From IMG/VR virus record IMGVR_UViG_3300027974_001530: a stretch of 64,000 nt of DNA; one strand, given 5' to 3'. Origin of the DNA: a virus (lineage: Duplodnaviria > Caudoviricetes). Under the pieces are notes generated by a model, which saw only the letters and a list, made by a program, of their open reading frames with translations, made no database searches and was not told the DNA's origin. The first letter of the stretch is position 1. Each line of letters begins with the position of its first letter. The position numbers and the translations under genes were made by a program. Shown in pieces: positions 20,148 to 39,231 of this stretch.

Positions 20148-20558
20148 GGGGGTGTTTTTGGATTTGACAGGTATTGGCTGAGAATAAAGGGCACGTAGAG
20201 ACTGAATTAATCTCTTTAAAAACTGATTCACAAAAACAATCGGCGACGTTTTATCGAAAATGGAAACTCTTGGTTTACTAAGAGGTTCTGAAGTTACTGT
20301 AGCTTAATTAGTTAACGGAAACGGGGGTCGGTGGACACATAACCTAGCAACAGAAGTCCTTTAAGGTGGAATACGACTGAACCCGAAATCGAGTCGTTTA
20401 TTGGTTGTTAGTTTACGATAATGAAGAACAAACTAACCTTGTTTTCGATCAAGTTAAAAATCGAATATTTTGGAACGTTAGAAAATGTTAACCTAAACGT
20501 GTAGTCCTTGTTTGACAGGATATTATGGACCGGAGTTCGAGCCTCCGCACCTCCACCA
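20148..20558 (+). ncRNA. ssrA: tmRNA
   Basis: 5' GGGGGTG..TTTGGATTTGAC; 3' T-arm CGGAG-TTCGAGC-CTCCG and CACCTCC-ACCA with G3:U; tag ORF 20242-20307 GDVLSKMETLGLLRGSEVTVA*. Confidence 0.95.
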
Positions 20559-21710: not shown

Positions 21711-21749
21711 ATTAATTTTTTTCTTATAAGATTTAACCTAAAAATAAAA

Positions 21750-22620
21750 ACCTGAGATTACAGTTTTTGTAAGTGTCTTTCGAGTCATTATTGGTTCTAC
21801 TCTTATCCACAGGATTTTGTCCTGTAACACTCATTACCGATTGGTTAGACCAATCACTCCTTGACGACATAACTACTCTCTTACTAATCCTGTCTCCTCA
21901 AGATTGCGTCCTGATTCGGTCTTCGACGACCTAGAGATTTTTCATAAAAATACGGTCAAACTTGCGGTTATCACGTTCCACTGACTGCCAGTGAATAGGT
22001 GGGTAACTTCCGTTATATCGTGACGGACACTTTTGCTTTATAGTTTATAAATGTTACTTCATTAACATAAAAGTTTTTGTGTCGTGGATTGGTCAAAGCA
22101 GTGGTCCGTCTTAAGCTTCATTATCTTTTGAATAACAAAATACCAAACTGCCTCGTGAAATGTCCCCATTTCAATATTTCAAGATTACTTCGAGATTAAC
22201 CCCTTGGTAGAAGTTTATCAAGGACAATGTCAGCACCACCTGTTTGTTGTCATACCTTTCGGTTTTAAGTACCCTATCGTACTGAGACCCGCAATAACAA
22301 CATTGGAAATATTGATTCTTGCATCGTCCCTACGAGTTATTCCTATTAGAGTTCCCTCCTCAACAAGATGACCCACATCACCTCATCATAAAATCACTTT
22401 CCCTACACCGTTGGCCTCGGTACTAAAGATTTTATGGTATCTCGCCTGTGTACTCGACCTCAATGATCCGAAGACCATTAAGACGCAAACCCGTTACACT
22501 TGGGGGTTCACTTTATCCTACTTTCGTAGTTTATTTTATGGACTATACACGGCCCAATATCTTTATCAGTTTCATTCTTAAACCCGAAGGTTCTTAACTT
22601 AATCCTGAACGGATAATATC
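21750..22620 (-). ncRNA. Large structured ncRNA, GOLLD/ROOL-like (boundaries approximate)
   Basis: ~870 nt with no ORF of 60 aa or more and GC above the flanks; many hairpins with UUCG/GNRA loops; tandem promoters, boxA and terminator; 3' end GTAATCTCAG resembles GOLLD/ROOL ends as recalled. Confidence 0.65.
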
Positions 22621-31852: not shown

Positions 31853-31897
31853 AGATAAGGGAATTTCTGAGATCTACAAAATTTTTTTAAAAAAATG

Positions 31898-31969
31898 TAG
31901 CCCCACCTAGAATCGAACTAGGAACTAATCTTTAGAAGAGATTCGTTATATCCATTTAACTATGGGGCC
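31898..31969 (-). tRNA. tRNA-Arg(TCT)
   Basis: Manual cloverleaf; loop CTTCTAA. Confidence 0.95.
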
Positions 31970-32013
31970 ATTTTTAATATAGTAATATTTTACTAAAAAA
32001 TAAATATATTTTG

Positions 32014-32088
32014 TGGTCCCAGCAGGACTCGAACCTGCGACCCCTTGATTATGAGTCAAGTGCTACTAACCAACTGAGCTATAGGACC
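32014..32088 (-). tRNA. tRNA-CAT (elongator Met or Ile2)
   Basis: Cloverleaf; loop CTCATAA; G1-C72 paired; C4-G69. Confidence 0.9.
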
Positions 32089-32092
32089 TTTG

Positions 32093-32167
32093 ATGTCAGG
32101 GTGGGATTCGAACCCACAATGAGCAACCATAAAGGACTCGGCACCATGCCTCATTACACTCCTGACA
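32093..32167 (-). ncRNA. Non-canonical tRNA-like RNA, copy 1
   Basis: TGTCAGG/CCTGACA acceptor and canonical T-arm; no canonical anticodon arm. Confidence 0.7.
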
Positions 32168-32177
32168 AACAACGACT

Positions 32178-32264
32178 CTTCAGCATTCTACTCCCCGCAC
32201 ATACATAAATGTAACACGAAATTGTATCTAATTTAACCCTACGTTGGCGGTACGGGTACTGAAG
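32178..32264 (-). ncRNA. Unassigned structured RNA
   Basis: Stacked closing helices CTTCAGTA/TGCTGAAG and CCCGTAC/GTGCGGG. Confidence 0.45.
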
Positions 32265-32272
32265 TTTATCAT

Positions 32273-32359
32273 TGGTACTCGAAGAGGGACTCGAACCCTC
32301 ACAACCCACTGGTCAACAGAGCTTAAACCTGTCGTGTCTACCAATTCCACCATCCGAGC
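32273..32359 (-). tRNA. tRNA-Leu(TAA)
   Basis: Class II cloverleaf with encoded CCA. Confidence 0.95.
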
Positions 32360-32370
32360 ATTTTAAAGAG

Positions 32371-32433
32371 TTATTTTCTCTTTCTTACCATAAAGATAAA
32401 CAAAACAAATAATACAAATAATATTGGTGTCAT
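32371..32433 (-). CDS. Hydrophobic mini-peptide (20 aa)
   Basis: MTPILFVLFVLFIFMVRKRK. Confidence 0.3.
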   Translation of the reverse strand: MTPILFVLFVLFIFMVRKRK

Positions 32434-32449
32434 AATTTTTTAATATTTG

Positions 32450-32523
32450 TAGTCAGGACAGGACTCGAACCTGCAATCTCCCCAACATTCTGTCGGGGCG
32501 CGTTACCAATTAGCCACCTGACT
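32450..32523 (-). ncRNA. tRNA-like RNA with 9-nt anticodon loop (ACAGAATGT)
   Basis: Acceptor AGTCAGG/CCTGACT, D- and T-arms present; loop lacks U33. Confidence 0.7.
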
Positions 32524-32531
32524 AAATATTG

Positions 32532-32670
32532 TTGATAGTGATGGAGTACCCTTCTCGCTCCAATCTTAACTGCGTCTTCTGAGTTTTCTCAGGGCCCCGG
32601 CAGAGGGTGCTGAATTCCTGATCCACTCTGGATTGTCGACATCCGTTGAGGTGGGGAAAACCACTATCAA
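32532..32670 (-). ncRNA. Unassigned ~140-nt multibranch RNA
   Basis: 10-bp terminal helix TTGATAGTGG/TCACTATCAA; four internal hairpins; directly after boxA-like motif. Confidence 0.7.
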
Positions 32671-32690
32671 TATTTCAAAGAACTCTCTTT

Positions 32691-32766
32691 TGGCGGAGAT
32701 TACGGGAGTCGAACCCGCTCCGAACGCCGTGACAGGGCGACATCTTAACCATTTGACCTAATCTCC
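32691..32766 (-). tRNA. tRNA-Asp(GTC)
   Basis: Cloverleaf, G73, CCA. Confidence 0.95.
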
Positions 32767-32826
32767 AATAACCACACTTTAAAACCGTAGAGGTACAACT
32801 TGTGTGCTATGTTGTTCATTTCATTG

Positions 32827-32898
32827 TAGTCCCACCGGGAGTCGAACCCGACTTTCCAGGATGAAAACCTGGCGACCTAACCGATAGTCGATGGGACC
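32827..32898 (-). tRNA. tRNA-Glu(TTC)
   Basis: Cloverleaf; loop TTTTCAT. Confidence 0.93.
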
Positions 32899-32909
32899 AT
32901 TTTGTTTTA

Positions 32910-33191
32910 TTACAAACCTAACATTTCACCAACTTTTTTGAAATGTTTTTCAATTTTATTCAAAGAGGAGGTAGCCTTTTGTTTGGTTTTGAAGTACACG
33001 TAGAACTGACCACTTTCAGAATCAAATTCACCATCAATCTTTAAGACATTCTGAACAAAACTTTCAAACTCATATGCGTCTTCCCATTCACGGATTGTGT
33101 TTTTGTTTGGGTATCCTGTCAAACAATAATCATATCCCTCAATCTTTATAATTCTTAAACCTACTGTTTTAATTGTCTCTGTGTTTGTCAT
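32910..33191 (-). CDS. Hypothetical protein
   Basis: ORF behind a TTTG-N20-TATCTTTG promoter. Confidence 0.75.
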   Translation of the reverse strand: MTNTETIKTVGLRIIKIEGYDYCLTGYPNKNTIREWEDAYEFESFVQNVLKIDGEFDSESGQFYVYFKTKQKATSSLNKIEKHFKKVGEMLGL

Positions 33192-33428
33192 AGTTCTTTA
33201 TTTTTGTTCTACAAAGATATGTAATCTATTTTGATCTACCAAATCTTTTTTTAAATTTTTTTGTGGGACCCGCTCCCCACCCTAAACTTGTACTTCGTTC
33301 TATTAAGCGTTTTTTTCAGTTTCTTCAACCAGTCAGTATTCGTGTTAACTCTAATCATTTTAACTTTCGATGACTCTGAGGTTCCTGATAAAACTTCTCT
33401 CATCATTCATTTGTATTAATTGTTTATT

Positions 33429-33501
33429 TGGTGGACACTGTGGGAATCGAACCCATACGATCTGATTGCAAATCAGTCGACCTGCCGTCGGCATCAGGCC
33501 C
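33429..33501 (-). tRNA. tRNA-Ala(TGC)
   Basis: Loop TTTGCAA, G3:U70, CCA; imperfect acceptor stem. Confidence 0.8.
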
Positions 33502-33506
33502 ATTTG

Positions 33507-33578
33507 TGCGGGTAGAATGAATCGAACACTCGTCTCCACATTGGAAGTGTGGAGTAATAACCATTATACGATACCCGC
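33507..33578 (-). tRNA. tRNA-Gly(TCC)
   Basis: Cloverleaf; loop CTTCCAA. Confidence 0.93.
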
Positions 33579-33584
33579 TTATTG

Positions 33585-33665
33585 TACTGACGGTTGGATT
33601 CGAACCAACGTTTTAAACTTACCACTACAGTCATAGACGATATAAGCGTCCACTGGTACGTCAGC
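33585..33665 (-). ncRNA. tRNA-like RNA without a D-arm
   Basis: Acceptor GCTGACG/CGTCAGT and T-arm GTTGG/CCAAC; middle folds as a long stem capped by a CTTATAT loop. Confidence 0.7.
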
Positions 33666-33671
33666 ATTTAG

Positions 33672-33742
33672 TAGCGGATTCAGGGCTCGAACCTGGCCTC
33701 AGGGTTATGAGCCCCGTGTGCTACCAATTACACTAAACCGCA
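33672..33742 (-). tRNA. tRNA-fMet(CAT)
   Basis: 1:72 mismatch; three G-C pairs closing loop CTCATAA. Confidence 0.85.
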
Positions 33743-33747
33743 ATATG

Positions 33748-33869
33748 TAGGTAAAACAGGATTCGAACCTGTACGATATAGTTCCCTTTTCAAGAGACAT
33801 CCCCAGCTATATCTCGGTGACTTCTTACGGGGAATAAACCTAAGCGTCTGCCAATTCCGCCACTTACCT
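33748..33869 (-). ncRNA. 122-nt tRNA-like RNA with Leu-type D-arm and ~70-nt central domain
   Basis: AGGTAAG/TTTACCT acceptor, GCGGAATTGGCAGACGC D-arm, ACAGG-TTCGAAT-CCTGT T-arm. Confidence 0.75.
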
Positions 33870-33882
33870 ATTTAAAATTTTT

Positions 33883-33957
33883 TTGTCAGGGCCGGACTCG
33901 AACCGGATAAGCAACCTATAGGATTCGGGCACCGTCCCTCATTACGCCCACCTGACA
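33883..33957 (-). ncRNA. Non-canonical tRNA-like RNA, copy 2
   Basis: Paralog of 32093..32167; same length and conserved core. Confidence 0.7.
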
Positions 33958-33969
33958 AATTTATGTAGT

Positions 33970-34054
33970 TAGTAGTTGACTCACACTCTTGTTTCACCAT
34001 CTTGAGCCAACAGGTTAATGTACTTTACAAGTTTCCCGTTTCTTACAACCACTA
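33970..34054 (-). ncRNA. Unassigned structured RNA
   Basis: 9-bp closing helix TAGTGGTTG/CAACTACTA; GCTCA/TGAGT arm; follows boxA-like GTTCATTGAAA. Confidence 0.5.
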
Positions 34055-34155
34055 TATTTTTATTTCAATGAACTTCTTCTGTCTTCACGGGAGTAGGACA
34101 CCAACCTCTCACTTCCTACCCCCGTTGTTTGTCTTACAAATATACAAGGTTTTTT

Positions 34156-34320
34156 CTAATCTACCAAACTTTTTTTGTGTTTTTCTTTCCTTGTGTAATT
34201 ATTTTTTAAATCCATAGATCTAGTAACAAATCTACCATCAAAAAAACCTTGTTCTTTTTGAGCAACCCTTTGACTACCCAAGATCATCTTATGTACGATA
34301 TTTTTTTCCTTTGTTTTCAT
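34156..34320 (-). CDS. Small basic protein, ArfA-like C-terminal motif (54 aa)
   Basis: Manual translation ends FDGRFVTRSMDLKNNYTRKEKHKKSLVD. Confidence 0.5.
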   Translation of the reverse strand: MKTKEKNIVHKMILGSQRVAQKEQGFFDGRFVTRSMDLKNNYTRKEKHKKSLVD

Positions 34321-34321
34321 T

Positions 34322-34612
34322 TTAACAGTATCTTAAAATTTGAGTAATTAATTTATTTATATCCTCTTTAGTCTGATAACCCAAAACATCATTAGTTATT
34401 TTTGTGTCATAAGAAATTTCCCAATCATCTTTTGTTCCTTTAATAACGGCGACCTCATAATCATCATCATCTGAAGTATATGATCCACCCCCACCAAAAG
34501 GAGATTTAAATCTTACAACCGAGATTCCGTATCCTCCAGGAAAAAACAGTAATCCGTGAACCCCATTACCAATACCATGTGGTTTAAACTCTATATCATC
34601 AAATGTTATCAT
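34322..34612 (-). CDS. Hypothetical phage protein
   Basis: FPGGYGISVV..YEVAVI; start re-called at MITFDD behind a promoter. Confidence 0.75.
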   Translation of the reverse strand: MITFDDIEFKPHGIGNGVHGLLFFPGGYGISVVRFKSPFGGGGSYTSDDDDYEVAVIKGTKDDWEISYDTKITNDVLGYQTKEDINKLITQILRYC

Positions 34613-34850
34613 AAAACAAAGATACTGTTTATTTTTTAATTTCCAAAATTTCAAAGAACAAAAAAACCCACCTCTTTTGGAGATGGGTTTTCAAAATTTA
34701 TTATGTGTTAAATTATCATACCATCTCCTTATAGGAACGATCCTCAGCTATCGCCAATCCGCCTAATAATATGATATGTAAATTTTTCATTTGCGTTTTT
34801 ATTTGTTTTGTTATAAATATATGATACTTTTTAAAAGTGTCAAGTTTTAT

Positions 34851-35183
34851 TTAATAATTTCCATCTTCATCGTCGTAATCTTCATCTTCTTCACCAACTA
34901 TTGCGTAGTTAAGTTCATCAAGAATTACATTAACAGGGATCTCATCACCTTCTTCATTATAAAACATACCTTCAGTTCCATACTCAGAATAGTCAACAAG
35001 AGTAGACCCCTCTTCAACAAGTTCATTATACATGTCAATGACATCTTGTGGGTTAGCACTTTTTCCAAGTTCCATTCTAACACCCTCATACATACTTGGG
35101 ATACGAATCATACCCTCTTTATTTTCATTAATTACACGTTTAACAATACGTGATAAGTCTCTTTCTGTTAATCTATTTCTCAT
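34851..35183 (-). CDS. Hypothetical protein with RLTERDLSRIVKRVINE motif
   Basis: ORF track; shared motif. Confidence 0.85.
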   Translation of the reverse strand: MRNRLTERDLSRIVKRVINENKEGMIRIPSMYEGVRMELGKSANPQDVIDMYNELVEEGSTLVDYSEYGTEGMFYNEEGDEIPVNVILDELNYAIVGEEDEDYDDEDGNY

Positions 35184-35206
35184 TTTTATGTTTTTTATAT
35201 TTTTTA

Positions 35207-35539
35207 TTATGCATATTCTTCATCATCAAAGTCTTCGTCCTCATCGGCATTATAAAAACCTTCTTGGTTTAATAATTTTTCAATTTCATCAGCTAAATCT
35301 TCATTATTATCAGCATATAACGCCTCAATAATATCAAATTCATCCATTGAATTGATTTCTTCAATGTCATATCCACATTCATTTTCAAGGAAATCTCTCG
35401 CCTCTTCAATTAACTCTTGAAGTTCTTCACTATAGTACGGATCATACATACTTCTGTCTTTATAGTTGTCATTTTCATTAATTACACGTTTAACAATTCT
35501 TGTTAAATCTGATTCTGTTAGTCTAATTACTTTTTTCAT
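35207..35539 (-). CDS. Hypothetical protein with RLTESDLTRIVKRVINE motif
   Basis: ORF track; shared motif. Confidence 0.85.
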   Translation of the reverse strand: MKKVIRLTESDLTRIVKRVINENDNYKDRSMYDPYYSEELQELIEEARDFLENECGYDIEEINSMDEFDIIEALYADNNEDLADEIEKLLNQEGFYNADEDEDFDDEEYA

Positions 35540-35578
35540 TAAATGTTTTATTAATAAATATTCAATATACGATTTAAA

Positions 35579-35821
35579 TCACCACTTTCTTTTTTTATCA
35601 AGTTTTTTTGTTTTTTGATCCTCGATCATAGTTGCGTACTCATCTTTGGTTAATCTTTTAAAAGACTCATTATCCACATTACCAAATCTTTTTTTTGCAC
35701 TCGCCATTACTTGGATGAAGTTCTTACTCCACAAAATATTTGACCCTGCGACTTTACCGTTTTGAATTATATCAAAAACGTATAGGTATTCTCCTTCTTT
35801 ATTTTTCATCAACTTTTCCAT
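35579..35821 (-). CDS. Hypothetical protein (80 aa)
   Basis: Track ORF trimmed to MEKLMKNK because the upstream part overlaps two tRNAs. Confidence 0.7.
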   Translation of the reverse strand: MEKLMKNKEGEYLYVFDIIQNGKVAGSNILWSKNFIQVMASAKKRFGNVDNESFKRLTKDEYATMIEDQKTKKLDKKRKW

Positions 35822-35840
35822 CTTCACTTTTTTTTGTTTG

Positions 35841-35914
35841 TACCTCCGGCAGGACTCGAACCTGCAAAATTCACTTTCTAAGAGTGACGTGTATACCAAT
35901 TCCACCACGAAGGC
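35841..35914 (-). tRNA. tRNA-Leu(TAG), short variable loop
   Basis: Leu-type D-arm; loop CTTAGAA; variable region only ATTTT. Confidence 0.85.
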
Positions 35915-35921
35915 ATTTTTG

Positions 35922-35994
35922 AGCTCAGGGAGGGATTCGAACCCCCGTACCAAGGTTTTGCAGACCTGGGCCTAAACCACTCGACCACCTGAGC
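35922..35994 (-). tRNA. tRNA-Cys(GCA)
   Basis: Cloverleaf; U73. Confidence 0.95.
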
Positions 35995-35996
35995 AA

Positions 35997-36452
35997 TTAA
36001 CGGCAGTGGTGATCTGCCGCTCTTGTTGCAATTTGATTGTCAGGTTTAATATTTGCTTTATAACCTAACGACGTTGCCCACCCAACAACAGGAGAAACAA
36101 GTTTTGAACTGTAATGTTTATCTTCACAATTATAATCCAAATCTATTTCAACCTTAACTTTTACTTTTTGAGTTAACCATTCGGCAACCTCAATTGAATA
36201 ATCGGCTTCATTCCAAAGACGTGTCCACTTGTCTTTTATTTTTTTCACTTTTTGTTTGTGTAGGATGTAGTGAACACCACGATTACCATACCTGTAAGCA
36301 ATTACCGTAACATATACGGTACTTCTTCTATGGTTTTGTGAATCGGTTCCAATATGGATCTCAACCCATGGACATTCCTTTAAAACATCTAAGGTGTGTT
36401 TAACCACATCAGGTATCGCTTCACCATTAATTGTCCTAAATACTCTGTTCAT
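35997..36452 (-). CDS. YkuK/DUF458 RNase H-like protein
   Basis: IHIGTDSQ, RLWNEADYS, EIDLD, ATRAAD. Confidence 0.85.
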   Translation of the reverse strand: MNRVFRTINGEAIPDVVKHTLDVLKECPWVEIHIGTDSQNHRRSTVYVTVIAYRYGNRGVHYILHKQKVKKIKDKWTRLWNEADYSIEVAEWLTQKVKVKVEIDLDYNCEDKHYSSKLVSPVVGWATSLGYKANIKPDNQIATRAADHHCR

Positions 36453-36468
36453 TATTTCTTTTTATTTG

Positions 36469-36541
36469 TGGACAGAGAGGGTGTCGAACCCCCGACTCCA
36501 GGATCTTCAATCCTGAGCTCTACCAACTGAGCTACCTGTCC
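36469..36541 (-). tRNA. tRNA-Phe(GAA)
   Basis: Cloverleaf; loop TTGAAGA. Confidence 0.95.
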
Positions 36542-36604
36542 TTCTTCAGGGAGGACTTGGTTGAGGTATCCTAATGGTTCTACCCTCAACTCTCGCCTCC
36601 CGTC

Positions 36605-37099
36605 TTATTTAACTTCAAACGCATGAAGTAATACACGTTTTTTCTTGGTTGAATCCTCGTGGTTACCAATTACCACACCATCTTTGATTGTGAAAGCGTG
36701 ACGACTAACTAACATAAAGAATGTCCCAATAGGGTTTTGTTTTGTAAATGTACCCACAGTCATTTTACGTTTAACTCTCTCACCCTTTACTTTAACATCG
36801 TACTCCAAAGTGTGTCTACGGTAATTGTTTAATTTACCAACACACTTAACTTTTTTGTAGTTTACTTGACTTCTATTTTCTGCAAGTTTAGTCATTTTAT
36901 CTACAGTACCATAAGTACCGTTACGATCTCTACGACCAAAATTTTCTCTAACGTATTTGTGAGCGTAATCGTAAGACACATCAAAACAAGATGCAAATGC
37001 TCTTACAACACAATCGTTGGTTTCATTTTTTGCGATTGCAGATTCTTCATAACCTTTAATGGCTTTTCCTGTATTACAATATGGTAGTGCGTCTTTCAT
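36605..37099 (-). CDS. Hypothetical phage protein (NDCVVRA motif)
   Basis: Cys and His motifs NDCVVRAF..SRHAFTIKDG; Bacteroidota-type promoter upstream. Confidence 0.8.
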   Translation of the reverse strand: MKDALPYCNTGKAIKGYEESAIAKNETNDCVVRAFASCFDVSYDYAHKYVRENFGRRDRNGTYGTVDKMTKLAENRSQVNYKKVKCVGKLNNYRRHTLEYDVKVKGERVKRKMTVGTFTKQNPIGTFFMLVSRHAFTIKDGVVIGNHEDSTKKKRVLLHAFEVK

Positions 37100-37145
37100 A
37101 CTGTAAAGATACGAAATTTTTTTTAACTGGCAAAATTAATTTTTG

Positions 37146-37217
37146 CACATGGTGTTAGAATCGAACTAACCCGTCGAGGTTTTGGAGACCTGACCGACAC
37201 CTTGTCTGTACCATGTG
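37146..37217 (-). tRNA. tRNA-Trp(CCA)
   Basis: Loop CTCCAAA; G73; irregular D-arm. Confidence 0.8.
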
Positions 37218-37224
37218 TGTTTTG

Positions 37225-37297
37225 TACCCCCACAGAGATTCAAACTCCGATCTTTCCCTTAGAAGGGGAACGTCCTGTTCAGTTGGACGATGGGGGC
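37225..37297 (-). tRNA. tRNA-Arg(TCT), second copy
   Basis: Cloverleaf; loop CTTCTAA; T-loop TTTGAAT. Confidence 0.9.
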
Positions 37298-37301
37298 AAA
37301 T

Positions 37302-37478
37302 AAAAGATGATAAATGACTTTATCAGGAATCTGGGGTTCGTATCACTACGACGCTTCACACACCATTAGAGAGTTGGGTTGTTACATCAATACAATTAAG
37401 ATTGAATACCTTTCCTTAGTGTGTACCCTTACGACACGTCTCTCCACGTCTGTCATTCTACGTTTCTTATCATCTTTT
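37302..37478 (-). ncRNA. Unassigned ~177-nt structured RNA
   Basis: Perfect 12-bp closing helix AAAAGATGATAA/TTATCATCTTTT, flush between two tRNAs; possible pseudoknot. Confidence 0.65.
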
Positions 37479-37479
37479 G

Positions 37480-37552
37480 TACCTTCGGCGAGACTCAAAC
37501 TCACATCTTGTGGTCCGTAGCCACAGGTTCTATTCTATTTAACTACGAAGGT
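37480..37552 (-). tRNA. tRNA-Arg(ACG)
   Basis: Cloverleaf; loop CTACGGA. Confidence 0.9.
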
Positions 37553-37687
37553 AATTAAAGAATTTTGGTCAACCACTCGCATCCCACCAATCTCTTGTAT
37601 CAAACTTTCTGTAGTCCAAACGATAACATCTCCTACTACTCATTCTCAACTCACTTGCCTAAGCCTTGTCCGTTGTAAATTCTTTTG

Positions 37688-37761
37688 GGTGAATGGTGGG
37701 TTTCGATCCCACTACTTTCGGCTTCACAAACCGACGCTCTCCCGATTGAGCTACAAACACC
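37688..37761 (-). tRNA. tRNA-His(GTG)
   Basis: G-1:C73; loop TTGTGAA; T-loop ATCGAAA. Confidence 0.88.
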
Positions 37762-37767
37762 ATATAG

Positions 37768-37835
37768 TCCCGTATGTTGGACTTGAACCAACCTCAAGTC
37801 GGATATGAGCCAACTTTGATCCCTGATCATACGGG
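37768..37835 (-). tRNA. Atypical tRNA-CAT with reduced D-arm (68 nt)
   Basis: CCCGTAT/ATACGGG acceptor; GTTGG-CTCATAT-CCGAC anticodon arm. Confidence 0.7.
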
Positions 37836-37849
37836 TTGTTGTTTTATAT

Positions 37850-37923
37850 CTATCCGGAAATTTTCCTAATAGATTATTCAATTGTAGATGTCTATCCGGA
37901 AAAAAAGTCATCCTATCCGGAAA
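37850..37923. repeat. Three direct repeats of CTATCCGGAAA
   Basis: Copies at 37850, 37892 and 37913. Confidence 0.8.
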
Positions 37924-37941
37924 ATTTCCGGATTTTAATCG

Positions 37942-38027
37942 AGGAAGACATTGGAATCGAACCAAATACCCTTACGGGTACATCTCGCTTAGCAGGCGGA
38001 CCCTATCTCCATCAAGGTTTATCTTCC
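37942..38027 (-). tRNA. tRNA-Ser(GCT)
   Basis: Class II; loop CTGCTAA. Confidence 0.88.
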
Positions 38028-38085
38028 ATAGAGTGTGGTACTCCTGCAGTAGTTGGGGCACCCACACAAGTTATTCCCCTTTTTG

Positions 38086-38158
38086 TGCTCACGATAGGTT
38101 ACGATCCTATTCTCTCCACGATATCAGCGTGGTGCTTTCCCGATTAAGCTACGTGAGC
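38086..38158 (-). tRNA. tRNA-Ile(GAT)
   Basis: Cloverleaf; T-loop ATCGTAA. Confidence 0.92.
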
Positions 38159-38165
38159 ATTGTTG

Positions 38166-38238
38166 CGGACAAGGTAGGGTACGATCCTACAACCCTCGTA
38201 TTAACAGTACGATGCTCTCCCAATTGAGCTACTTGTCC
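38166..38238 (-). tRNA. tRNA-Asn(GTT)
   Basis: Cloverleaf; G73; T-loop ATCGTAC. Confidence 0.93.
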
Positions 38239-38244
38239 ATTTTT

Positions 38245-38330
38245 TGGTGGGAGAGGAGGGACTCGAACCCCCAAGGTCTCACGACGACAGATTTACAGTC
38301 TGCTGAGCCAACCAATTGCTCAACTCTCCC
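38245..38330 (-). tRNA. tRNA-Tyr(GTA)
   Basis: Class II; CCA encoded. Confidence 0.95.
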
Positions 38331-38338
38331 AGTTCAGG

Positions 38339-38456
38339 AAAGGGGAAGATGGTTCCGTGGACATCCCCTTTTATGATTGGCGTTACTATGACAGTTAAAA
38401 CTCCGACATAACTACGAACTACTGACACGTTAACGTTATATCATTCCCCAATCAAC
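38339..38456 (-). ncRNA. Unassigned structured RNA between tRNA-Val and tRNA-Tyr
   Basis: TGATTGG/CCAATCA closes two hairpins; followed by an AAAGGGGA/TCCCCTTT hairpin. Confidence 0.5.
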
Positions 38457-38461
38457 CTTTG

Positions 38462-38535
38462 TACACCCTACAGGGATCGAACCTGTGACCTGTTGTATGT
38501 AAAACAACCGCTACTACCATCTGAGCTAAAGGTGC
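38462..38535 (-). tRNA. tRNA-Val(TAC)
   Basis: Cloverleaf; loop TTTACAT. Confidence 0.93.
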
Positions 38536-38537
38536 GT

Positions 38538-38753
38538 TTATGATGTTATCATTTTAATACTTTCAATTGTGGTAGAGTACATTCCTTGTTCAATATAAGG
38601 TTTACTATCTTTTAATAGTTTCAAAACAATTTCTGTTGCCTCGTTTTCGGATTTACCTTGTTTAACCAATCTTACGATTGCTCTCTCACATTCTTCCCCA
38701 ACCTTAACCATTCCGTTTGGCAGTCCTTTTTTAATTTTCTCTACTTTATTCAT
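38538..38753 (-). CDS. Hypothetical protein (71 aa)
   Basis: ORF four nt after a TTTG-N19-TAACTTTG promoter. Confidence 0.65.
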   Translation of the reverse strand: MNKVEKIKKGLPNGMVKVGEECERAIVRLVKQGKSENEATEIVLKLLKDSKPYIEQGMYSTTIESIKMITS

Positions 38754-38796
38754 AGTACAAAGTTAATGGTTTTTTTTAATCTACCAAATTTTTTTG

Positions 38797-38872
38797 TGTC
38801 CCCGACAGGGTTCGAACCTGTGACCCCTCCATTAAAAGTGGAGTGCTCTGAAACCAACTGAGCTACGAAGAC
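38797..38872 (-). tRNA. tRNA-Lys(TTT)
   Basis: Cloverleaf; loop CTTTTAA. Confidence 0.95.
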
Positions 38873-38877
38873 ATTAG

Positions 38878-38953
38878 TCGGGATACCAGGACTCAAACCT
38901 GGATGATGTCCACTTCCCAAAAGTGGCGACTTAGTCAATTAGTCCACATCCCG
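38878..38953 (-). tRNA. tRNA-Pro(TGG)
   Basis: Cloverleaf; loop TTTGGGA. Confidence 0.92.
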
Positions 38954-38959
38954 TTATAG

Positions 38960-39043
38960 AGGAAGAAGTAGGTGTCGATCCCAATACCTTTCGGTACCGC
39001 CCGTTTTCAAGACGGGGTCACAAGCCGTTGTGATTCATCTTCC
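38960..39043 (-). tRNA. tRNA-Ser(TGA)
   Basis: Class II; loop CTTGAAA; T-loop ATCGACA. Confidence 0.88.
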
Positions 39044-39049
39044 TTATTG

Positions 39050-39121
39050 TTGTTCCCCAAGGGTTCGAACCTCGATTCCATGGACCAAAACCATGTGTCC
39101 TGCCGATTAGACGAGGGAACA
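39050..39121 (-). tRNA. tRNA-Gln(TTG)
   Basis: Cloverleaf; loop TTTTGGT. Confidence 0.92.
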
Positions 39122-39158
39122 TTAATGAATCCAATATGTCAAAGAACTTTTTCTTTTG

Positions 39159-39231
39159 AGGTTCCTATCAGGGTCGAACTGATGACTCCGGGTTACAAAG
39201 CCGGGATATTACCAAACTATACTAAGGAACC
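39159..39231 (-). tRNA. tRNA-Thr(TGT)
   Basis: Cloverleaf; loop TTTGTAA; 31:39 mismatch. Confidence 0.88.

What the first reader, a model, noticed from the sequence alone, without database searches (positions are those of the whole stretch)
33748..33869. 122-nt tRNA chassis carrying a ~70-nt inserted domain
Seen: good acceptor, Leu-type D-arm and T-arm, but the anticodon and variable region is replaced by a segment with mutually overlapping pairings TCCCC/GGGGA and GATATAG/CTATATC (pseudoknot or switch). It is too short for a group I intron. Inference: tRNA ends serve as a processing and stability scaffold for a functional RNA, comparable in size to the unexplained stable RNAs of the T4 tRNA cluster.
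Basis: partly seen in the sequence, partly recalled or inferred. Interest (0 to 1): 0.62.

Follow-up and report, generated by a model that had tools for sequence, protein, structure and literature searches.

The report
Anticodon-less leucine-tRNA-shaped phage RNA
This gene in a freshwater jumbo phage's tRNA operon makes an RNA with the upper body of a leucine tRNA but a conserved folded insert instead of a codon-reading arm; it belongs to a large, phage-enriched RNA family (phage T5 "RNA1" is an annotated member) whose job is still unknown.

Summary
On the minus strand, 33869 to 33748 encodes a 122-nt RNA. It has a perfect 7-bp acceptor stem, a leucine-type D arm, a canonical T arm and discriminator A. 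About 71 nt sit where the anticodon and variable arms should be. Rfam's tRNA model passes its threshold only by skipping 62 nt, and ARAGORN misses the element.

Six variants from related lake-phage contigs are 92-99% identical. Their 300-nt flanks are only 28-79% identical, and the real tRNAs of the same arrays average 78-83%. Every variable position fits one fold:
- a basal stem;
- a 5x5 internal loop;
- the UCCCC/GGGGA helix, which carries a compensatory C:G to U:A change;
- an invariant 24-nt loop whose GAUAUAG pairs with CUAUAUC as a pseudoknot. This last helix never varies, so it is untested.

The intron reading fails, because the implied anticodon is not conserved and position 37 is C.

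The same leucine-type chassis with unrelated inserts is common in viral contigs and rare in prokaryote genomes, and T5 RNA1 has this chassis.

It is most likely a non-decoding stable RNA cut out by tRNA-processing enzymes. It keeps the nucleotides of the bacterial LeuRS identity set, so leucylation is plausible but untested.

This scan has already reported the same class in other genomes.

The parts
33748..33869 (-). Whole 122-nt tRNA-shaped RNA gene (RNA position p = 33870 minus the window coordinate)
   Evidence: Rfam RF00005 scores 32.7 bits with a 62-nt insertion. Six conserved variants exist.
33863..33869 (-). Acceptor stem, 5' strand AGGUAAG (RNA 1-7)
   Evidence: Pairs 7 of 7 with 33749-33755. 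Pair 4:118 changes U:A to C:G in two lineages.
33844..33860 (-). Leucine-type D arm GCG-GAAUUGGCAGA-CGC (RNA 10-26), with A14, A15 and G18G19
   Evidence: Read directly. It is identical to the D arm of chassis RNAs in unrelated viral contigs. Relatives differ only by D-loop indels and C20U.
33839..33843 (-). Basal stem Pa, 5' strand UUAGG (RNA 27-31), pairing with CUUGA at 33790-33794 (RNA 76-80)
   Evidence: U28 to C turns U.G into C-G in three lineages. All cells are paired.
33790..33794 (-). Basal stem Pa, 3' strand CUUGA (RNA 76-80)
33829..33833 (-). Helix S1, 5' strand UCCCC (RNA 37-41)
   Evidence: C39:G68 becomes U:A in the L193/L195/L218 lineage.
33800..33804 (-). Helix S1, 3' strand GGGGA (RNA 66-70)
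   Evidence: Same compensatory pair.
33805..33828 (-). Invariant 24-nt terminal loop (RNA 42-65), which contains the S2 5' strand GAUAUAG (33807-33813)
   Evidence: No substitution in any of six variants.
33775..33781 (-). Helix S2, 3' strand CUAUAUC (RNA 89-95); pseudoknot partner of 33807-33813
   Evidence: Perfect 7-bp complement but invariant, so untested.
33782..33789 (-). Linker AAAGGGAA (RNA 81-88)
   Evidence: G85 to A in the L194 group breaks the pairing that RNAfold's MFE structure predicts here.
33756..33772 (-). T arm ACAGG-UUCGAAU-CCUGU (RNA 98-114)
   Evidence: Invariant. It is the commonest T arm among long chassis RNAs, 11 of 41.
33748..33755 (-). Acceptor stem 3' strand UUUACCU and discriminator A (RNA 115-122); no encoded CCA
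34139..34167 (-). Promoter-like site TTGGTA-17-TATATT upstream of the block that holds the element
   Evidence: Found by the consensus scan and conserved in relatives. No terminator-like site lies between it and the element.

Best explanation
The element is a non-decoding, tRNA-shaped stable RNA of the phage leucine-tRNA-chassis family, to which phage T5 RNA1 belongs.

Inferred pathway:
1. It is transcribed as part of the phage tRNA operon.
2. RNase P cuts its 5' end, and 3' processing of the 5-nt spacer before tRNA-Met frees its 3' end.
3. CCA is added.
4. The acceptor, D and T arms fold into a normal tRNA elbow.

The decoding half is replaced by one long interrupted arm, made of Pa 27-31/76-80, a 5x5 internal loop and S1 37-41/66-70. 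The invariant 24-nt terminal loop of that arm probably folds back and pairs with 89-95 next to the T stem, forming a pseudoknot (S2).

The insert is the lineage-specific working part, most likely a binding surface for a protein or another RNA. The chassis supplies processing, stability and recognition by host tRNA enzymes.

Shown here: the anatomy, the conservation, two compensatory pairs, family membership and enrichment in phages. Inferred: expression, processing, the S2 pseudoknot and any activity.
For: Chassis features were read directly and match the Rfam tRNA model.

Conservation:
- Six variants from viral and metagenome contigs are 92-99% identical, while their 300-nt flanks are 28-79% identical.
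- Real tRNAs of the same arrays average 78-83% identity.

Structure: all seven variable insert positions fit one fold. There is one compensatory pair in S1, one G.U to G-C change in Pa, three changes in the internal loop and one in the linker. Under this fold 100% of cells are paired.

Family:
- 29 of 69 viral-contig hits to a chassis-only pattern are such elements, all with unrelated inserts, against 4 of 120 hits in prokaryote genomes.
- T5 RNA1, annotated 'tRNA-like stable RNA with unknown functions', has the same D arm and matches the tRNA model across 131 nt. That annotation implies members accumulate unspliced.

Context: the gene is tightly packed between tRNA genes, and a conserved promoter-like site lies upstream.
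Against: - There are no expression data for this phage.
- The S2 pseudoknot never varies, and a 7-bp stem arises in 8.9% of shuffles.
- The whole RNA folds no better than shuffled sequence (z = -0.14).
- The S1 covariation is a single evolutionary event.
- tRNAs in these arrays are mosaic (64-100% identity), so part of the element's high identity could reflect recent cassette exchange rather than constraint.
- No binding partner or target was found. The best antisense match in a 290-kb relative is 12 nt, and shuffled inserts reach 11-14 nt.
Confidence: 0.62

Rival explanations
1. The chassis is the working part. Bacterial LeuRS ignores the anticodon, so the RNA is CCA-tailed and charged with leucine although it cannot decode. 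It would then act either as a leucine donor or sink outside the ribosome, or as a LeuRS/EF-Tu-binding regulator. The insert would set partner specificity.
For: The element and the family keep the nucleotides of the bacterial leucine identity set: U8, A14, A15, G18G19, U48 and A73. Among 41 long chassis RNAs, A73 is present in 37 and U48 in 39, although their acceptor stems differ widely. Canonical tRNA-Leu genes from the same scans have A73 in 80 of 81 and U48 in 81 of 81.

From the literature:
[quoted passage not shown] Charging is lost with C73 or when D/T-loop contacts are broken (PMC9976931, citing Larkin 2002).
- Deleting the whole anticodon arm costs Aquifex LeuRS only 2.5-fold in affinity (PMC2377443).

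A scaffold needed only for processing would not need a leucine-type D arm or A73.
Against: - No charging data exist.
- The shared features could simply be inherited from one tRNA-Leu ancestor.
- No L/F-transferase (PF03588) or class Ia synthetase (PF00133) gene is found in three 93-99% complete relatives.
- The scans that built the family fixed the D-arm sequence, so only A73 and U48 are unbiased counts.
- T5 RNA1's 3' end does not show an obvious A73.
Confidence: 0.2
2. It is a decoy or sponge. Its tRNA-shaped body would soak up a host tRNA-directed factor, such as a defence nuclease that reads the elbow or acceptor stem, a modification enzyme, or RNase P, and so protect or retune the phage's real tRNAs.
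For: - The family is enriched in phages.
- The gene sits inside a tRNA operon that also holds several other non-canonical tRNA look-alikes.
- The chassis sequence is conserved across unrelated phages.
Against: - Known anticodon nucleases read the anticodon loop, which this RNA lacks.
- A decoy would not need a 71-nt insert held almost invariant.
- No defence or counter-defence gene was linked to it here.
Confidence: 0.08
3. It is an intron-containing tRNA. A 37-nt hairpin (RNA 35-71) would be removed from the anticodon loop to give an 86-nt class II decoding tRNA.
For: ARAGORN run with introns allowed models the element as tRNA-Thr(UGU) with a 37-nt intron at position 34/35 and a 17-nt variable region. 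The same helices (Pa and S1) appear in my preferred fold.
Against: - The implied anticodon loop UUUGUCU has C at position 37, and there is no nucleotide 26.
- The implied anticodon changes from UGU to CGA in the L193 lineage, and the L120 variant is not called at all.
- Across 41 family members the intron-mode anticodons look random; 2 of 31 are Leu.
- A 37-nt hairpin cannot be a group I intron, and Rfam finds no ribozyme or intron family here at E up to 10.
- From general knowledge, bacteria and phages have no bulge-helix-bulge splicing endonuclease.
- T5 RNA1 is annotated as a full-length stable RNA.
Confidence: 0.04
4. It is a decaying tRNA-Leu pseudogene, or a DNA-level element such as a recombination or homing site, with no RNA function.
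For: - The thermodynamic signal is weak.
- The arrays show mosaic, cassette-like evolution.
- Homing endonucleases are known in T4 and T5 tRNA clusters.
Against: - Compensatory changes in the acceptor stem and in S1 act at the RNA level.
- The element is more conserved than most working tRNAs beside it.
- The perfect chassis is maintained in many unrelated phages.
Confidence: 0.03

Closest known systems
Phage T5 RNA1 (NC_005859 30501-30644, misc_RNA T5s03, annotated 'tRNA-like stable RNA with unknown functions')
   Same: - It has a leucine-type D arm (CCG-GAAUUGGUAGA-CGG), a canonical T arm and paired ends.
- A long middle replaces the anticodon and variable arms.
- It sits among the phage's tRNA genes.
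- It matches the Rfam tRNA model end to end only across a large insertion (24 bits over 131 nt).
Sources.
   Different: - Its insert has no sequence similarity to the one here.
- The acceptor stem is imperfect at its end, and the annotated RNA carries a 3' extension.
- The T-loop sequence differs.
- The host and phage family differ (Demerecviridae on E. coli, against an uncultured T4-like freshwater jumbo phage).
Phage T4 species 1 and species 2 RNAs (rnaC and rnaD) of the T4 tRNA cluster
   Same: - They are small stable RNAs of unknown function encoded directly after the phage tRNAs.
- rnaC ends in a canonical T arm (CCGGG-UUCGAAU-CCCGG) with partly paired termini.
- Their size is similar (119-139 nt).
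Sources.
   Different: - They have no leucine-type D arm.
- Neither matches the Rfam tRNA model at E up to 1.
- The acceptor-like stem of rnaC pairs at only about 5 of 7 positions.
Class II bacterial or phage tRNA-Leu (Rfam RF00005)
   Same: Acceptor stem, U8, D arm, T arm, U48 and A73 are those of tRNA-Leu. The 17 nt after Pa (RNA 81-97) match the length of a class II variable region.
   Different: - There is no 5-bp stem with a 7-nt anticodon loop, so the RNA cannot read a codon.
- Its chassis is closer to chassis RNAs of unrelated phages than to the two real tRNA-Leu genes of its own genome.
tmRNA tRNA-like domain
   Same: An aminoacylatable tRNA top half without an anticodon, in which a synthetase that ignores the anticodon (AlaRS there) does the charging. 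As an analogy, it shows how such an RNA could work.
   Different: - The pair at 3:70 is G-C here, not G.U.
- The D arm is complete.
- The middle is only 71 nt, with no tag reading frame.
- Rfam's tmRNA model does not match the element, and the phage has a separate full tmRNA at 20148-20558.
Engineered tRNA scaffolds for expressing recombinant RNA (anticodon arm replaced by cargo), and the RNase P-processed phage antisense RNAs P1 c4 and P4 CI
   Same: A tRNA-like frame gives correct processing and stability to an embedded RNA.
   Different: - The scaffolds are artificial. c4 and CI act by antisense pairing, and no antisense target was found here.
- No Rfam family other than tRNA (plus a sub-threshold CRISPR-repeat match) was reported on the element at E up to 10.

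Membership tests
Phage leucine-type tRNA-chassis RNAs (T5 RNA1-like) | 7-bp acceptor stem formed by the two ends, followed by a single discriminator base | tested here: met
   Positions 1-7 pair 7 of 7 with 115-121 and the discriminator is A. One pair covaries.
Phage leucine-type tRNA-chassis RNAs (T5 RNA1-like) | U8, a 3-bp D stem and an 11-nt D loop GAAUUGGYAGA with A14, A15 and G18G19 | tested here: met
   The D arm is identical to the family consensus and to the T5 RNA1 D loop except C20/U20.
Phage leucine-type tRNA-chassis RNAs (T5 RNA1-like) | Canonical T arm, preceded by U48 | tested here: met
   ACAGG-UUCGAAU-CCUGU preceded by GU. U48 is present in 39 of 41 members.
Phage leucine-type tRNA-chassis RNAs (T5 RNA1-like) | No anticodon arm; a middle of roughly 45-230 nt that is unrelated between member types | tested here: met
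   The middle here is 71 nt. No k-mer is shared among 37 insert types beyond shuffle level. ARAGORN intron-mode anticodons look random.
Phage leucine-type tRNA-chassis RNAs (T5 RNA1-like) | Found in phage rather than cellular DNA | tested here: met
   29 of 69 pattern hits in viral contigs, against 4 of 120 in prokaryote genomes. The window itself is a phage tRNA array carrying GOLLD and tmRNA.
Phage leucine-type tRNA-chassis RNAs (T5 RNA1-like) | Accumulates as a full-length stable RNA | not testable with these tools
   Known only from the T5 annotation. No transcript data exist for this phage.
Decoding tRNA (Rfam RF00005 / ARAGORN) | 5-bp anticodon stem closing a 7-nt loop with U33 and a purine at 37 | tested here: not met
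   The Rfam match needs a 62-nt insertion across the anticodon arm. ARAGORN default gives no call. The forced intron model has C37 and an anticodon that is not conserved.
Group I intron in a bacterial or phage tRNA gene | Self-splicing core (P3-P8, about 200 nt or more) inserted in the anticodon loop between intact anticodon-stem halves | tested here: not met
   The removable segment is 37 nt. No intron or ribozyme family matches at E up to 10.
tmRNA | G3.U70 pair, a degenerate D arm and a tag reading frame with pseudoknots | tested here: not met
   The 3:70 pair is G3-C119 and the D arm is complete. There is no tmRNA model hit on the element.
HDV-like and other small self-cleaving ribozymes, and pseudoknot riboswitch aptamers | A match to a curated covariance model; for HDV-like ribozymes, a P3 hairpin between the P2 5' strand and the P1 3' strand | tested here: not met
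   No such family matches at E up to 10. Only 2 nt separate the S2 5' strand from the S1 3' strand, so there is no room for P3 (direct reading).
T4 rnaC / rnaD | Sequence or model similarity to the T4 species 1 and 2 RNAs | tested here: not met
   Only a T arm is shared with rnaC. No leucine D arm is present, and neither RNA hits the tRNA model.

The most novel reading that the evidence does not exclude
Phages exploit the anticodon-blindness of LeuRS. On this reading, this RNA and its whole family are leucylated tRNA bodies that cannot decode. They would form a phage-specific class of charged RNAs that deliver or sequester leucine, LeuRS or EF-Tu, with each insert type directing the charged end to a different partner.
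Probability: 0.18. Interest if true: 0.85.

Novelty: new member of a known kind. Interest (0 to 1): 0.58.

Why it matters
Phage T5 and T4 records annotate tRNA-like stable RNAs in their tRNA clusters with no known function. This element shows that the T5 RNA1 design (a leucine-tRNA top half plus a private insert) is also kept under strong constraint in uncultured freshwater jumbo phages. In viral contigs it is common, carrying many unrelated inserts.

The family is absent from Rfam, and I found no description of it in the papers I searched.

The element offers a compact, nearly frozen insert with a testable fold. Because the chassis matches the minimal LeuRS substrate defined in the biochemical literature, it also yields a sharp experiment: is the RNA charged with leucine? 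A positive answer would reveal a new use of aminoacylation by viruses. A negative answer would support natural tRNA scaffolding of small RNAs.

Tried and rejected
- **Intron-containing tRNA.** ARAGORN with introns gives tRNA-Thr(UGU) plus a 37-nt intron. The loop has C37, the anticodon changes in a close relative, and across 41 family members the intron-mode anticodons look random.
- **RNAfold MFE long hairpin.** It is broken by G85A and by U34 to G or C in relatives.
- **A 'UUCCC/GGGAA stem plus UUGAAAA (Phe-like) loop' reading.** A pattern scan found only the known copies and chance hits, and G85A argues against the stem.
- **A weak anticodon-arm analogue (28-56).** It is less consistent, with 87.5% of cells paired.
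- **Antisense RNA.** There is no complement of 11 nt or more in the 64-kb window. The best in a 290-kb relative is 12 nt, while shuffled inserts reach 11-14 nt. An energy-based duplex scan timed out.
- **Known ribozyme, riboswitch or sRNA.** Apart from tRNA, the only Rfam match on the element at E up to 10 is a sub-threshold CRISPR-repeat match on the opposite strand, which is S2 read as a hairpin.
- **Cultured relatives.** None of 50,697 GenBank phage records matches the insert.
- **A fold common to all insert types.** No shared k-mers were found. Pairing between the 3' hairpin loop and upstream sequence is not enriched; 3 of 24 reach p of 0.05 or less.
- **A conserved neighbouring protein.** None recurs. 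Neighbours include large terminase, a DnaA-type HTH protein and a primase.
- **A phage L/F-transferase or LeuRS-type synthetase in near-complete relatives.** None was found.
- **More distant homologues of this insert.** Four further pattern scans returned only the same clade (one search was mis-specified by one N and found nothing).
- **Literature.** Searches found nothing on the function of T5 RNA1 or the T4 species 1 and 2 RNAs. The T4 genome review and Larkin 2002 are not held in the library.

Full report
**What is there**

The window carries a phage tRNA array on the minus strand, together with a GOLLD RNA (21749-22155) and a tmRNA (20148-20558). Earlier notes of this scan describe the source as an uncultured freshwater T4-like jumbo phage.

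The finding lies on the minus strand, 33869 to 33748, and is 122 nt long. RNA position p equals 33870 minus the window coordinate. Direct reading gives:
- acceptor AGGUAAG (1-7) pairing with UUUACCU (115-121);
- U8 and G9;
- D arm GCG-GAAUUGGCAGA-CGC (10-26);
- a 71-nt middle (27-97);
- T arm ACAGG-UUCGAAU-CCUGU (98-114);
- discriminator A122.

The gene starts 13 nt after a 75-nt tRNA look-alike and ends 5 nt before tRNA-Met. Rfam's tRNA model scores 32.7 bits (gathering score 29), but only by skipping 62 nt where the anticodon arm belongs. ARAGORN's default mode misses the element.

**Is it more than chance?**

Thermodynamics alone says no. The MFE is no better than shuffles (z = -0.14), and a perfect stem of 7 bp or more arises in 8.9% of shuffled inserts. 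The case rests on comparison with relatives.

Exact-word and chassis-anchored scans recovered the same element in six viral contigs and nine metagenome contigs. Together with the window's own copy, these make six distinct variants (alignment A1).
- The element is 92-99% identical between lineages whose 300-nt flanks are 28-79% identical.
- The bona fide tRNAs of the same arrays average 78-83% identity, with a range of 64-100%.
- The neighbouring tRNA-Met is heavily changed. The upstream 75-nt look-alike has gained 57 nt in one lineage and is absent in another.

**Structure**

Only seven of the 71 insert positions vary: 28, 33, 34, 39, 68, 73 and 85.
- C39 and G68 change together to U and A in one lineage, which supports S1.
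- Acceptor pair 4:118 changes from U:A to C:G.
- RNAfold's long-hairpin MFE structure is contradicted by G85A and by changes at 34.

The fold that accommodates every change is as follows (100% of cells paired):
- Pa 27-31/76-80, where U28 to C turns U.G into C-G;
- a 5x5 internal loop holding positions 33, 34 and 73;
- S1 37-41/66-70;
- an invariant 24-nt terminal loop (42-65);
- a linker 81-88 holding position 85;
- S2 57-63/89-95, which crosses S1 as a pseudoknot.

S2 never varies, so it remains a proposal. I estimate the odds that the S1 double change is a coincidence at about 1-2%. That figure is an inference, and it rests on a single evolutionary event.

**Not an intron-bearing tRNA**

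With introns allowed, ARAGORN models the element as tRNA-Thr(UGU) with a 37-nt intron at 34/35. Several things argue against this:
- The implied loop has C at position 37, and there is no nucleotide 26.
- The implied anticodon becomes CGA in a close relative.
- One variant is not called at all.
- Over 41 family members the intron-mode anticodons look random.
- No intron, ribozyme or riboswitch family matches at E up to 10.

**A family, not a one-off**

I scanned for only the D-arm core and the T loop, separated by 58-86 nt. This returned 69 viral contigs. In 29 of them the hit is a complete chassis with a perfect 7-bp acceptor. The middles are unrelated, and many share the acceptor AGUCAGG/CCUGACU.

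Among 119 viral loci chosen only by the leucine-type D arm, about 15% carry middles that bring the RNA to 94-181 nt.

Further properties of the family:
- Inserts share no k-mers beyond shuffle level.
- Most members stand alone rather than in tRNA arrays.
- No neighbouring protein recurs.
- The element's D and T arms equal the family consensus and differ from the two real tRNA-Leu genes of its own genome.

T5 RNA1, annotated 'tRNA-like stable RNA with unknown functions', has the same D arm and matches the tRNA model across 131 nt. T4 rnaC shares only a T arm.

This scan has already reported the class in at least 38 other genomes and this same insert in one other genome. My reading was reached before I saw those notes, and it agrees with them.

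**How it probably works**

The shown facts are the anatomy, the selection, family membership and enrichment in phages.

I infer that the RNA is transcribed with the tRNA block. A conserved promoter-like site lies at 34167-34139, and no terminator-like site intervenes. RNase P and 3' processing would then release it, CCA would be added, and it would persist as a stable, non-decoding RNA whose insert is the lineage-specific working surface.

I found no antisense target in the window or in a 290-kb near-complete relative. A protein or a structured-RNA partner therefore seems more likely than simple antisense action.

**The more novel reading**

The chassis equals the minimal LeuRS substrate. According to the literature:
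- E. coli tRNA-Leu lacking both the anticodon and variable arms is still charged, provided A73 and the D/T-loop contacts are intact.
- Removing the anticodon arm costs Aquifex LeuRS 2.5-fold in affinity (PMC9976931, PMC2377443).

Across 41 long family members, A73 is kept in 37 and U48 in 39, despite very different acceptor stems. This fits selection for leucylation, but it could also be ancestry. Three 93-99% complete relatives encode neither an L/F-transferase nor a class Ia synthetase. I put this reading at about 0.2.

**Verdict**

The element is a new member, with its own insert type, of the T5 RNA1-like phage tRNA-chassis RNAs. These are known only as unexplained stable RNAs, and the family is uncatalogued in Rfam.

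Noticed in passing
window 32449-32523 (-): ARAGORN calls this tRNA-Phe(GAA), but it looks like another chassis-type RNA. It has the acceptor AGUCAGG/CCUGACU common in the family, a degenerate Leu-like D arm and A at position 33. Its middle can instead form a 7-bp stem with a 5-nt loop. A canonical tRNA-Phe(GAA) exists at 36468-36541.
   Followed up: partly
window 33585-33665 (-): A tRNA-like RNA without a D arm, carrying a CUUAUAU loop. It is conserved in all three relative lineages, with a compensatory change in its stem (GGACG/CGUCU to GGAUG/CAUCU). The segment after the stem looks like a displaced D loop.
   Followed up: partly
window 33883-33957 (-) and 32093-32167 (-): Two 75-nt tRNA look-alikes with acceptor UGUCAGG/CCUGACA. 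The copy at 33883-33957 carries an extra 57-nt insert in L121 and L123 and is absent from the L120 lineage. These look-alikes therefore also gain and lose middles.
   Followed up: partly
window 33429-33501 (-): A 73-nt tRNA-like gene missed by ARAGORN. It has a UUUGCAA loop (anticodon UGC, Ala), G3.U70, an odd D region and an encoded CCA. Rfam aligns it weakly to the tmRNA tRNA-like domain (17.4 bits).
   Followed up: no
window 35840-35914 (-): tRNA-Leu(UAG) is only 75 nt long with a 5-nt variable loop, so it is a type I (short-arm) tRNA-Leu with a Leu-type D arm. Its presence in a phage fits LeuRS not needing the long variable arm.
   Followed up: no
L218:3283-3700 (+): In the relative lineage that carries the U39:A68 variant, the element is followed within about 80 nt by a small T-arm-bearing look-alike. 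After that comes a second Leu-chassis RNA (acceptor AGUCAGG) with a different 45-nt insert.
   Followed up: no
window 31897-39231 compared with G002 264000-272500, L121 and L194: Orthologous tRNAs in related phages are a mosaic, from 64% to 100% identity within one array. This suggests cassette-like exchange of individual tRNA genes between co-occurring phages.
   Followed up: no
window 34087-34126 (-): An 11-bp hairpin (ACGGGGGUAGG...CCUACUCCCGU) lies just downstream of the promoter-like site at 34167-34139 and is conserved in relatives. It has no U tract, and its role is unknown.
   Followed up: no
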